From IMG/VR virus record IMGVR_UViG_2703718811_000010: a stretch of DNA of 5,046 nt; one strand, given 5' to 3'. The notes under the pieces were generated by a model. It made no database searches. It saw nothing but the letters and a program-made list of their open reading frames with translations, and was not told the origin of the DNA. Shown here one piece after another: positions 1,756 to 1,917 of this stretch (its first letter is position 1; every line of letters begins with the position of its first letter). The DNA comes from a virus (taxonomy: Duplodnaviria; Heunggongvirae; Uroviricota; Caudoviricetes). The position numbers and the translations under genes are program-made.

Positions 1756-1917
1756 ATGTCATCAAAGAACAGAACCCGCAGAACAACAACCCGCAATATC
1801 CGTTTCCCCAATCACATGATTGAACAGATCAACAGCGCCCTTGAGCATAAAGGGTCCGGTAACTTTTCAGCGTGGGTTATTGAAGCCTGTCGCCGGAGAC
1901 TGACAACTGACAACTGA
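1756..1917 (+). CDS. Small basic protein (53 aa), predicted ribbon-helix-helix DNA-binding fold; function unknown
   Basis: ATG 1756 to TGA 1915-1917 gives MSSKNRTRRTTTRNIRFPNHMIEQINSALEHKGSGNFSAWVIEACRRRLTTDN. Basic N-terminal tail, short beta-strand-like NIRFP, a helix, a G-x-S turn (GSGNFS) and a second helix ending in RRRL fit the Arc/MetJ/CopG pattern. Below the ORF-track length cutoff. Only a weak SD (GGGG) and a weak -10 candidate GATAAT at 1717-1722. It resembles small conserved proteins found beside cos/nohA in E. coli cryptic prophages, but I cannot confirm family membership. Confidence 0.6.
   Translation: MSSKNRTRRTTTRNIRFPNHMIEQINSALEHKGSGNFSAWVIEACRRRLTTDN

What the first reader, a model, noticed from the sequence alone, without database searches (positions are those of the whole stretch)
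1756..1917. Small ribbon-helix-helix-like gene next to cos, transcribed opposite to the phage operons
The 53-aa product has the beta-strand / helix / G-x-S turn / helix pattern of Arc/Mnt/CopG-type ribbon-helix-helix proteins, with a very basic N-terminal arm (RTRRTTTR). Such proteins are repressors or antitoxins. It is the only clear plus-strand gene in the window, sits in the AT-rich island between cos and Rz, and may belong to the poorly characterised small-protein families found beside nohA/cos in E. coli cryptic prophages. Its target is unknown; nearby candidate sites are the ACGTCA repeats upstream, the heptads downstream, or the ant leader motifs.
Basis: partly seen in the sequence, partly recalled or inferred. 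Interest (0 to 1): 0.5.

Follow-up and report, generated by a model that had tools for sequence, protein, structure and literature searches.

The report
Conserved small DNA-binding gene beside cos
The 53-codon frame is a real, strongly conserved prophage gene of the already catalogued but uncharacterised YlcI/YnfO (DUF3950) family, present in most E. coli genomes and unannotated in phage lambda's reference record; it most likely encodes a small ribbon-helix-helix DNA-binding regulator, not an antitoxin.

Summary
Window 1756-1917 (+) is a genuine gene, with the same ATG and an intact frame in 56 distinct DNA variants. Variable sites by codon position are 11/8/37 and dN/dS is 0.03-0.11, while both flanks are less conserved.

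It is a member of Pfam DUF3950 and NCBIfam YlcI/YnfO, the family of E. coli K-12 ylcI and ynfO. RefSeq already annotates it as such, and its function is unknown. Phage lambda has an intact copy that its reference record does not annotate.

The ribbon-helix-helix reading has consistent but modest support:
- a two-helix model with an extended N-terminus;
- profile hits to HicB-type and Arc-like families;
- an Arc-register profile alignment.

It is a lone gene. 38 of 40 downstream contexts have no co-directional partner, so an antitoxin role is unlikely.

Position is conserved: the gene reads antisense to the late operon, at the junction of the lysis and packaging modules, with two unrelated packaging systems.

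Distant relatives sit in integrase-AlpA-primase satellites. There they lie beside three palindromic boxes that overlap divergent promoters, a repressor-like layout.

The heptads are a variable-number repeat, not a conserved target. The gene's own target remains unknown.

The parts
1756..1917 (+). Protein-coding gene, 53 aa, YlcI/YnfO (DUF3950) family. The conserved core is codons 1-49 and the tail is variable.
   Evidence: ORF. Pfam PF13132 E 4.5e-19, NCBIfam NF041551, phrog_949 E 6e-32. Intact in 56 DNA variants. Codon-position bias 11/8/37 and dN/dS 0.03-0.11. RefSeq annotates near-identical copies as 'YlcI/YnfO family protein'.
1745..1748 (+). Shine-Dalgarno-like GGGG, 7 nt before the ATG.
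   Evidence: Read from the sequence. Other lineages have purine-rich equivalents such as AAGGAA. Inference only.
1717..1722 (+). Candidate -10 hexamer GATAAT (GACAAT in lambda) at -39..-34. No convincing -35 box, so the promoter is not established.
   Evidence: Read from the sequence. A -10-like box TATAGT/TATGGT/TATATT lies 31-37 nt upstream of the ATG in several satellite relatives, close to this position. The consensus scan found no + strand sigma-70 site upstream of the gene.
1654..1686 (.). Inverted repeat ATCAATTATGACG / CGTATTAATTGAT. Its right arm also pairs with 1714-1724, which overlaps the candidate -10. Candidate binding site, untested.
   Evidence: the repeat finder I1 (13 nt, 85%) and I2. 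The TTAATTGAT element and an inverted partner recur in lambda-type loci and in L057 at a different spacing. The whole-window count is not significant: 4 matches against 2.0 expected.
1627..1740 (+). Upstream in-frame ORF (phrog_9395). Not coding; this is the leader/promoter region of the gene.
   Evidence: phrog_9395 hit. Variable sites 12/13/12 by codon position, and in-frame stops in the L057 lineage.
1899..1941 (+). Perfect ACTGACA heptad array, 6.1 copies. It covers the last codons and the stop, and is a variable-number tandem repeat at the mosaic boundary.
   Evidence: TRF score 86, 100% matches. Copy number is 2 (L004), 5 (L003) and 6 (L001 and the window), and the array is absent from all other loci. 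With 2 copies the product is 56 aa; with 3 or more it is 53 aa.
2153..2186 (+). Intrinsic-terminator-like hairpin plus T-run. Probable end of the transcription unit.
   Evidence: scan_promoters_terminators found a 9-pair stem followed by TTTTTTTTGAT. Function inferred.
1546..1559 (.). cosN (CGAGGTCGCCGCCC, reverse complement of the lambda cohesive-end sequence), 197 bp upstream of the ATG. Context, not part of the gene.
   Evidence: Sequence. The region 1519-1904 matches the right end of lambda-like phages at about 89%. Identification as cosN rests on knowledge of lambda.
909..1436 (-). Nu1/NohA-like terminase small subunit gene, divergent from the gene across cos. Context.
   Evidence: Pfam Phage_Nu1 E 6e-13 and phrog_57.

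Best explanation
The gene encodes a stand-alone, probably dimeric ribbon-helix-helix DNA-binding protein of the YlcI/YnfO (DUF3950) family.

**Proposed structure.**
- Residues 12-17 (T-R-N-I-R-F) would form the DNA-reading beta-ribbon, preceded by a basic arm.
- Residues 19-32 and 37-52 form the two helices.
- The invariant N-F-S motif caps helix B.

**Proposed expression.**
- The gene is transcribed from its own weak promoter, against the direction of the late operon.
- It should therefore be made mainly when late transcription is off, that is in the prophage state or early in infection.

**Proposed function.**
- It acts as a transcriptional repressor that binds dyad-symmetric sites.
- By analogy with satellite-borne relatives, these would be sites overlapping its own promoter and a divergent promoter.
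- The C-terminal tail beyond residue 50, including the heptad-encoded TTDN, is dispensable.

**Shown:**
- that it is a real gene under strong purifying selection;
- its family membership;
- its conserved position and orientation;
- its lack of a partner gene.

**Inferred:**
- the ribbon-helix-helix fold, from weak but consistent evidence;
- dimerisation;
- DNA binding;
- the repressor role;
- expression in lysogens.

**Unknown:** the actual operator in lambdoid prophages.
For: **It is a real gene.**

**It belongs to the family.**

**Fold.**
- The AlphaFold2 model has mean pLDDT 75.5, helices at 19-32 and 37-52, and an extended N-terminus.
- 18 of 32 family members hit the HicB-like phrog_497, best E 8.3e-5. 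Two hit the Arc-like phrog_228 at 6.8e-4.
- hhalign of the family against an Arc-family profile aligns NIRFP with NLRWP in the strand plus helix A register, P = 9e-4.
- The best PDB profile hit is a CopG-family protein (E = 1) in the right register.

**It is a lone regulator.** 38 of 40 distinct downstream contexts have no co-directional ORF of 50 aa or more within 250 nt.

**Its placement is conserved and antisense.**
- It is divergent from Nu1 across cos in the window, in lambda, in DLP12 and in Qin.
- It starts 41 bp from the divergent start of an HNH endonuclease gene that precedes Terminase_2-type TerS and TerL in a different packaging module.

**Relatives sit in a repressor-like setting.**
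- In integrase-AlpA-primase satellites the gene is the only opposite-strand gene and is divergent from the primase operon.
- Three 10-14 bp palindromic boxes lie upstream. Spacing is 23 (or 26) then about 47 bp. The box sequence differs between islands.
- In several islands the third box overlaps the gene's -10-like box.
- The other two flank a leftward TTGACG promoter. The scan tool finds that promoter only in L141.

**A homologue is transcribed in a cryptic prophage.** K-12 ylcI appears in a ybcW-ylcI convergent overlapping-transcript pair in RNA-seq (PMC12288877).
Against: **The fold evidence is weak.**
- Foldseek against the PDB found nothing and against BFVD nothing useful.
- Pfam ribbon-helix-helix models are not hit, apart from RHH_6 at E 0.09 for one member.
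- The strand is not formed in the monomer model, and no dimer could be modelled.

**No operator is established for the window gene.**
- No sigma-70 promoter was detected upstream.
- Nearly identical proteins sit behind unrelated upstream sequences, cos-type against HNH-type.
- An autoregulatory operator is therefore not conserved in any obvious way, and no repeated-box architecture was found outside satellites.

**The satellite analogy is indirect.** Nothing shows which protein binds the satellite boxes. Two satellites with the same predicted strand residues (KKNIRF) have different boxes.
Confidence: 0.6

Rival explanations
1. A packaging- or cos-associated DNA-binding accessory. The protein would bind near the start of the packaging module, for example to shield a prophage cos site from terminase, to silence leaky expression of terminase genes in the lysogen, or to modulate cos recognition.
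For: - The gene always abuts the first gene of the packaging block, in two unrelated systems: Nu1 with cos, and HNH-TerS-TerL.
- Two satellite members fuse DUF3950 to the N-terminal helix-turn-helix of Terminase_2 small subunits, above Pfam thresholds.
- All four TTAATTGAT-like 9-mers in the window lie at 1475-1686, on both sides of cosN.
Against: - Satellite relatives have no lambda-type cosN within 5 kb.
- Satellite relatives are divergent from a primase operon, not from packaging genes.
- Chromosomal orphans lie beside cytochrome bd, ABC transporter, SopB/PipD-type and YebY/YebZ-type genes.
- The fused proteins occupy the regulatory position, not the terminase position.
- The 9-mer count is not significant over the whole window, and the region is AT-rich.
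Confidence: 0.12
2. A small protein that acts through protein-protein contacts rather than DNA. Examples would be a modulator of a host or competing-phage protein, or a subunit that poisons or partners the homologous satellite protein by forming mixed dimers.
For: - The gene is very widespread. The query region 1400-2300 containing it matched 4361 of 5426 complete E. coli genomes.
- It stays intact in defective prophages such as this window, DLP12 and Qin.
- The same family occurs in both helper-type prophages and satellites.
- All fold evidence is weak, so DNA binding is not established.
Against: - The best structural and profile matches are DNA-binding ribbon-helix-helix proteins.
- The N-terminal arm is strongly basic.
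- The most conserved residues (I15, R16, F17; N36, F37, S38) lie where such proteins contact DNA.
- No hit to any PADLOC defence model.
Confidence: 0.15
3. A ribbon-helix-helix antitoxin of a type II toxin-antitoxin pair. The toxin would be the DUF1398 protein (YdfO/YbcV) or an unrecognised small gene downstream.
For: - Weak profile similarity to HicB-type antitoxin DNA-binding domains.
- In Qin, ynfO is followed 57 bp later by co-directional ydfO. The same arrangement occurs in 2 of 40 contexts.
Against: - 38 of 40 downstream contexts have no co-directional ORF.
- The window itself has none with any family hit.
- The segment after residue 50, where such antitoxins carry their toxin-binding region, is not conserved and is set by mosaic joins and a repeat.
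- The N-terminal HicB domain is absent.
- No PADLOC hits for the protein or for YdfO.
Confidence: 0.05
4. Not a gene. The conservation would reflect a DNA-level function of the cos-proximal region.
For: - The region lies 200-360 bp from cosN.
- It is unannotated in the lambda reference record.
Against: - Third-position bias of 5/7/34, against 12/13/12 in the adjacent non-coding stretch.
- dN/dS of 0.03-0.11.
- The same protein is kept behind unrelated upstream DNA, and in satellites and chromosomal sites without cos.
Confidence: 0.02

Closest known systems
YlcI (b4589, DLP12) and YnfO (b4533, Qin) of E. coli K-12; Pfam DUF3950 / NCBIfam YlcI_YnfO_N
   Same: Same family. A YnfO-length (77-aa) family member, P0088, is 85% identical over the core. 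Same position and orientation, divergent from the Nu1 homologue (nohD or nohA) across about 390 bp that I infer includes cos from homology with lambda. Same conserved 50-residue core with a free-varying tail.
   Different: The tail differs: 53 aa ending in a heptad-encoded TTDN, against 64 and 77 aa. No DUF1398 gene follows it here. The family has no assigned function; ynfO is listed among uncharacterised K-12 genes (PMC11551758).
Unannotated 64-aa ORF of phage lambda, NC_001416 48109-48303 (complement)
   Same: Orthologous position next to cos at the right end of the genome. Lambda-derived copies are 88% identical in protein.
   Different: Not annotated in the reference record. It must not be confused with lambda 'orf-64' (lambdap73), which lies between Q and S (PMC10695390).
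P22 Arc and Mnt, and AmrZ (Arc-family ribbon-helix-helix repressors)
   Different: Pfam Arc (PF03869) is not hit. The profile-profile match covers only the strand and helix A, P = 9e-4. The gene is not placed at an ant promoter: the Ant-like gene is 1.7 kb away inside the late operon. DNA binding is untested.
ORF56 of Sulfolobus plasmid pRN1 / CopG-type copy-control proteins, and the C-terminal DNA-binding domain of HicB antitoxins
   Different: Sequence identity is only 10-18%. There is no HicB N-terminal domain, no toxin partner and no plasmid replication context.
Omega repressor of plasmid pSM19035, a ribbon-helix-helix protein that binds arrays of 7-bp repeats (from my own knowledge)
   Same: A ribbon-helix-helix-like gene lies next to a perfect 7-bp tandem array.
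   Different: The array lies at the 3' end of the gene, not at a promoter. It has 2, 5 or 6 copies in near-identical relatives and is absent from the rest of the family. It is best read as replication slippage, not as an operator.
Master repressors of phage satellites (Stl/Rpr of Gram-positive PICIs)
   Same: In enterobacterial integrase-AlpA-primase satellites the DUF3950 gene is divergent from the replication operon. Three palindromic boxes lie over the divergent promoters.
   Different: This applies to distant relatives (36-55% identity), not to the window gene. The fold and size are different from Stl. Binding is untested. Fillol-Salom et al. 2018 state that a global repressor in Gram-negative PICIs is unclear and that AlpA is an activator (PMC6092414).

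Membership tests
DUF3950 / YlcI-YnfO family | Scores above the curated thresholds of Pfam PF13132 and NCBIfam NF041551. | tested here: met
   68.5 bits against 25; 37.5 bits against 30; phrog_949 E 6e-32.
DUF3950 / YlcI-YnfO family | Conserved core motifs [KR]-x-I-R-F-P and N-F-S-A-W-V-x-[ED]-A-C. | tested here: met
   I15, R16, F37 and V41 are invariant in both alignments, and A44 in A2. F17, N36, S38, A39, W40 and C45 are at least 90% conserved.
DUF3950 / YlcI-YnfO family | Lambdoid-prophage location divergent from the Nu1/Noh gene. | tested here: met
   Window, lambda, DLP12 and Qin.
Ribbon-helix-helix (Arc/MetJ/CopG) superfamily | Strand-helix-helix topology in about 45 residues. | tested here: inconclusive
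   The AlphaFold2 monomer gives helices 19-32 and 37-52 and an extended N-terminus, but no strand, as expected without a partner chain. pLDDT is 75.5.
Ribbon-helix-helix (Arc/MetJ/CopG) superfamily | Structural similarity to solved members. | tested here: met
Ribbon-helix-helix (Arc/MetJ/CopG) superfamily | Detectable sequence-profile relationship. | tested here: inconclusive
   phrog_497 (HicB-like) best E 8.3e-5, with the window protein itself at 0.026. Arc-like phrog_228 at 6.8e-4. hhalign against an Arc profile P = 9e-4. Pfam ribbon-helix-helix models are essentially not hit.
Ribbon-helix-helix (Arc/MetJ/CopG) superfamily | Obligate homodimer with an intersubunit two-stranded sheet. | not testable with these tools
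   Only single chains can be modelled here.
Ribbon-helix-helix (Arc/MetJ/CopG) superfamily | Sequence-specific binding to repeated or dyad DNA sites. | not testable with these tools
   Candidate dyads lie at 1654-1686 and 1714-1724, and there are three-box arrays in satellite relatives. No binding data exist.
Type II antitoxin (RelB/ParD/CcdA/HicB-like) | Adjacent co-transcribed toxin gene. | tested here: not met
   38 of 40 downstream contexts lack any co-directional ORF of 50 aa or more within 250 nt. None is present in the window.
Type II antitoxin (RelB/ParD/CcdA/HicB-like) | Conserved toxin-neutralising segment outside the DNA-binding domain. | tested here: not met
   Sequence after about residue 50 is unrelated between lineages. 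No HicB N-terminal domain is present.
Arc/Mnt immunity-I regulators of ant | Pfam Arc (PF03869) membership and placement at the ant promoter. | tested here: not met
   No PF03869 hit. The Ant-like gene at 3647-4216 lies inside the late operon, 1.7 kb away. No ant gene is annotated near the family members in lambda, DLP12 or Qin.
Omega-type heptad-binding repressors | Conserved arrays of 7-bp repeats at regulated promoters. | tested here: not met
   The heptads are found only in the window, L001, L003 and L004, with 6, 6, 5 and 2 copies, at the 3' end of the gene.

The most novel reading that the evidence does not exclude
The YlcI/YnfO family could be the unidentified repressor of enterobacterial integrase-AlpA-primase satellites (PICI- or P4-like elements), acting through the three palindromic boxes over the divergent promoters. 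The copies carried by lambdoid prophages, lambda's unannotated one included, would then be lysogen-expressed paralogues. They might cross-talk with those satellites through shared operators or mixed dimers, or keep the packaging end of the prophage silent.
Probability: 0.15. Interest if true: 0.7.

Novelty: new member of a known kind. Interest (0 to 1): 0.35.

Why it matters
**How common it is.** The query region 1400-2300 that contains the gene matched 4361 of 5426 complete E. coli genomes, with up to 10 places per genome. The gene stays intact in decayed prophages. It also exists unannotated in the reference record of phage lambda, one of the best-studied genomes. Yet it has no known function.

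**What follows from the fold assignment.** A ribbon-helix-helix fold and a lone-regulator status turn a 'domain of unknown function' into a testable DNA-binding hypothesis.

**Questions raised by the context.**
- The gene keeps its place at the lysis-packaging junction with unrelated packaging machineries. It reads against the late operon. This asks what is being regulated there.
- Its relatives occupy a repressor-like position in Gram-negative phage satellites. The published PICI work states that the existence of a master repressor in those elements is unclear (PMC6092414).

**Limits.** The gene itself is already catalogued. The fold inference is modest and nothing here is mechanistically proven.

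Tried and rejected
**Structure and sequence searches that gave little.**
- phmmer of the protein against PDB sequences returned only a chance ribosomal-protein hit.
- Foldseek against the PDB returned nothing, and BFVD gave nothing informative.
- The AFDB libraries were unavailable.
- Rfam over the window gave only sub-threshold chance hits.
- The profile search of 5.8 billion proteins listed only proteins named YlcI/YnfO or DUF3950, or carrying no informative name. It surfaced no bridge to named ribbon-helix-helix families.
- The Arc search returned only close Arc relatives, so the Arc profile is shallow.

**Readings I tested and dropped.**
- *Lambda 'orf-64'.* The literature name refers to a different ORF between Q and S.
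- *Cos adjacency as a general rule.* Rejected. HNH-type phages, satellites and chromosomal orphans lack it.
- *The upstream phrog_9395 ORF as a leader peptide or read-through extension.* Rejected on its substitution pattern.
- *Defence-system membership.* No PADLOC hits.

**Operator searches.**
- A shared-operator k-mer search over 25 non-redundant upstream regions found CACGTCAA in 7 groups. This reflects the related satellite promoters plus the lambda-type region, not a family-wide motif.
- GTG-N6-CAC boxes of the satellite type are not enriched in the window: 2 found against 1.2 expected, and neither is near the gene.
- No repeat architecture was found upstream of the HNH-type or chromosomal members.

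**Literature.** The lambda ribosome-profiling paper (Liu et al. 2013) could not be retrieved.
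Full report
**What is in the window.**

The 5046-base window is a lambdoid prophage segment lying in reverse of the usual lambda map. All the recognisable phage genes are on the - strand:
- a lysozyme gene (4490-5023);
- a P22-type Ant-like gene (3647-4216);
- a small membrane-protein ORF (3498-3650);
- Rz and Rz1 (3023-3490 and 3085-3270);
- a Nu1/NohA-like terminase small-subunit gene (909-1436);
- a C-terminal fragment of lambda tail protein I (364-912), which the Nu1-like gene runs straight into.

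Other landmarks:
- The lambda cohesive-end sequence lies at 1546-1559.
- Window 1519-1904 matches the extreme right end of lambda-like phages at about 89%.
- The finding's ORF, 1756-1917 on the + strand, starts 197 bp from cosN and reads away from it. It is therefore antisense to the late transcript, which in lambda runs from the lysis genes through cos into Nu1 (established lambda biology).

**Is it a gene?**

Yes.
- I took 78 related loci from viral contigs, one E. coli genome and the window. These gave 56 distinct DNA variants, and all keep the same ATG and an open frame through about codon 50.
- Conservation peaks over the ORF and falls on both sides.
- Variable sites by codon position are 11/8/37.
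- Pairwise dN/dS between lineages is 0.03-0.11, while synonymous sites approach saturation.
- A built-in control is the ORF at 1627-1740. It lies in the same frame, five codons upstream, and matches a PHROG of predicted proteins. In the same sequences it shows 12/13/12, and one lineage has in-frame stops. It is therefore non-coding.

**What family?**
- Pfam DUF3950 at 68.5 bits, NCBIfam YlcI_YnfO_N above its cutoff, and phrog_949 of unknown function.
- RefSeq already labels near-identical copies 'YlcI/YnfO family protein'.
- The query region 1400-2300 that contains the gene matched 4361 of 5426 complete E. coli genomes.
- In K-12, ylcI (DLP12) and ynfO (Qin) occupy the same place, divergent from nohD and nohA across about 390 bp.
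- Lambda has an intact 64-aa copy at 48109-48303 (complement) that NC_001416 does not annotate. This is not the 'orf-64' of the lambda literature, which is lambdap73 between Q and S.
- The family is treated as uncharacterised: ynfO is listed in the 2024 y-ome survey. I found no functional study in the paper library.
- One RNA-seq survey lists ybcW-ylcI among convergent overlapping transcripts. The K-12 homologue is therefore transcribed.

**Anatomy of the protein.**
- Only the first 49-50 residues are conserved. Beyond that the tails are unrelated between lineages, with total lengths of 48-91 aa.
- The homology break in the DNA falls at about window 1900.
- In this window the break coincides with a perfect ACTGACA array of 6.1 copies.
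- Near-identical relatives have 2, 5 or 6 copies, and no other locus has the array. It is a slippage-type variable-number repeat that only changes the disposable tail (RRRLTTDN against RRRLTTDKKTC).
- It is therefore not a conserved operator, although heptad arrays are the known targets of one ribbon-helix-helix protein, omega of pSM19035 (my knowledge).

**Is it ribbon-helix-helix?**

The sequence pattern fits:
- alternating polar and hydrophobic residues N14-I15-R16-F17, then P18;
- helix A;
- a G/S/N turn;
- the invariant N36-F37-S38 at the start of helix B.

The computed evidence:
- AlphaFold2 with a 32-sequence alignment gives pLDDT 75.5, helices at 19-32 and 37-52, and an extended N-terminus.
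- Scanning 32 family members against PHROGs, 18 touch the HicB-like family (best E 8.3e-5) and two touch an Arc-like repressor family (6.8e-4).
- I confirmed my recalled Arc sequence against PDB entry 1arq. Profile-profile alignment to an Arc-family alignment then puts NIRFP on NLRWP, P = 9e-4.

Against this:
- Foldseek finds nothing;
- Pfam's ribbon-helix-helix models are not hit;
- the dimer, which defines the fold, could not be modelled.

I rate the fold assignment likely but not proven.

**Repressor or antitoxin?**
- Of 40 distinct downstream contexts, 38 have no co-directional ORF of 50 aa or more within 250 nt. The two exceptions are the Qin-type ynfO-ydfO pair.
- The window's downstream ORFs hit nothing.
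- There are no PADLOC matches.
- The part of the protein where an antitoxin would hold its toxin-binding segment is not conserved.

The antitoxin reading is therefore unlikely. This is a lone small DNA-binding-type protein.

**Conserved position.**
- In a second, common class of E. coli phages the upstream homology breaks right at the ATG. The neighbour there is an HNH endonuclease gene whose start lies 41 bp away on the other strand, followed by a Terminase_2-type small subunit and a large subunit. Rz still lies downstream and convergent.
- The gene thus keeps its place and antisense orientation at the lysis-packaging junction, whichever packaging machinery follows. Adjacency to cos itself is not general.

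**Distant relatives.**

The family is confined to Enterobacterales plus Gilliamella. Many apparent hits elsewhere are lambda control-DNA contamination. Members at 36-55% identity fall into two settings.

*Setting 1: satellites.* These elements carry integrase, AlpA, sometimes Bro-N, and a large primase.
- The DUF3950 gene is the only gene on its strand and is divergent from the primase operon.
- Its upstream region carries three copies of a 10-14 bp palindrome. Start-to-start spacing is 23 (or 26) and then about 47 bp in four independent islands.
- The palindrome sequence differs from island to island: GTGTACAAACAC, GTGCGGCCACAC, TGTGCGCACA, TGTCCGTACA.
- In several islands the third copy overlaps a TATAGT-like -10 that lies 31-37 nt before the ATG.
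- The first two flank a leftward TTGACG promoter. The scan tool finds this promoter in L141, and I read it by eye in L084.
- This is the layout of a genetic switch. The published description of Gram-negative PICIs says a global repressor there is unclear.
- Two satellite members carry an extra Terminase_2-type helix-turn-helix at the C-terminus. One of them, P0177, is seen in the same regulatory position.

*Setting 2: chromosomal orphans.* These lie next to cytochrome bd genes, an ABC transporter, YebY/YebZ-type genes, or between an IpgD/SopB-family effector with its chaperone and a C69 peptidase.

No satellite locus has a lambda-type cosN within 5 kb.

**What it most likely does here.**

I commit to a stand-alone ribbon-helix-helix transcriptional regulator.
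- It would be made from its own weak promoter when the late operon is silent.
- It would bind dyad sites.

Candidate sites in the window are the inverted repeat 1654-1666/1674-1686 and its partner at 1714-1724, which overlaps a GATAAT at -39..-34. These remain only candidates, for three reasons:
- no sigma-70 promoter passes the scan;
- the element count is not significant;
- the HNH-type phages carry a 96-98% identical protein behind unrelated DNA.

The main target may therefore lie elsewhere.

The rivals, in order, are:
- a protein-protein modulator;
- a packaging- or cos-associated binder, favoured by the junction position and the TerS-type fusions, disfavoured by the satellite and chromosomal contexts;
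- an antitoxin;
- no gene at all.

**Verdict.**

Its main interpretation is supported: a ribbon-helix-helix-like small regulator of the noh/cos-adjacent family. Its suggested targets and the antitoxin option are not supported.

The gene is already catalogued, so this is a new member of a known kind. Three points add modest value:
- the fold assignment for a 'domain of unknown function';
- the unannotated lambda copy;
- the repressor-like setting of satellite relatives.

Noticed in passing
L002 (lambda NC_001416) 3110-3304, = record 48109-48303, complement: Phage lambda carries an intact 64-aa YlcI/YnfO homologue next to cos. The reference record annotates nothing in this stretch. It is a different ORF from the 'orf-64' (lambdap73) of the literature.
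   Followed up: yes
window 364-1436 (- strand), junction near 912-943: The prophage is defective. The Nu1-like ORF runs directly into a C-terminal fragment of tail protein I, with the terminase large subunit, head genes and most tail genes missing. The closest complete genomes match only from position 943 onward.
   Followed up: partly
window 1942-2790: An AT-rich stretch of about 0.85 kb carries two + strand terminator-like hairpins. One at 2153-2186 was found by the scan; I read the other by eye at about 2790-2822. No ORF here hits a family. The stretch is present in only 5 of 5426 complete E. coli genomes. It may be a small-RNA or small-protein cargo of unknown nature.
   Followed up: partly
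window 1627-1740 (+): A 37-codon ORF matches phrog_9395 and lies in the same frame as the gene, separated from it by one TGA and five codons. Some database 'proteins' fuse the two. Its substitution pattern (12/13/12) shows it is not coding, so that PHROG is probably a family of spurious calls.
   Followed up: yes
L088-L124, L152, L156 (genome contigs); many ENA proteins such as P0031-P0046: Assemblies labelled Kitasatospora, Cohnella, Pedobacter, Flavobacterium, Staphylococcus and others contain contigs with the lambda right end, often about 3.5 kb or 48.5 kb long. Many ENA-derived 3.5-kb contigs give frameshifted versions of the protein. This looks like lambda control-DNA contamination of public assemblies.
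   Followed up: no
L084 4895-4980; L141 4895-4983; L133 4891-4971; L163 4884-4972: Integrase-AlpA-primase satellites have three palindromic boxes with conserved spacing (23 or 26, then about 47 bp) but island-specific sequence. They lie between the DUF3950 gene and the divergent primase operon. A conserved GC-rich hairpin lies further upstream.
   Followed up: partly
L085 4714-5103 (P0177); P0201: Two satellite proteins fuse the DUF3950 domain to the N-terminal helix-turn-helix of Terminase_2 small subunits. P0177 is complete at 129 aa and sits in the regulatory position, not in a packaging module. The genomic context of P0201 was not found.
   Followed up: partly
L127 4995-5171; L143 4980-5192; L158 4980-5150; L125 about 5001-5180: Chromosomal orphan members of the family. 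One lies between an IpgD/SopB-family effector with its chaperone and a C69 peptidase in Salmonella enterica subsp. diarizonae; I read this as SPI-5-like from my own knowledge. Another is near YebY/YebZ-type genes in Citrobacter. Others follow an ABC transporter in Pantoea and cytochrome bd genes in Rouxiella.
   Followed up: partly
window 1475-1686: All four TTAATTGAT-like 9-mers (at most one mismatch) in the window lie within 212 bp, on both sides of cosN. Two are on the Nu1 side and two on the gene side. The whole-window count is not significant, and the region is AT-rich.
   Followed up: no
window 3498-3650 (- strand): A 50-aa hydrophobic ORF between the Ant-like gene and Rz matches phrog_4906 of unknown function (E 1.5e-33). 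RefSeq annotates a 37-aa hypothetical protein just upstream of Rz in a related prophage; I did not check whether it is the same ORF.
   Followed up: no
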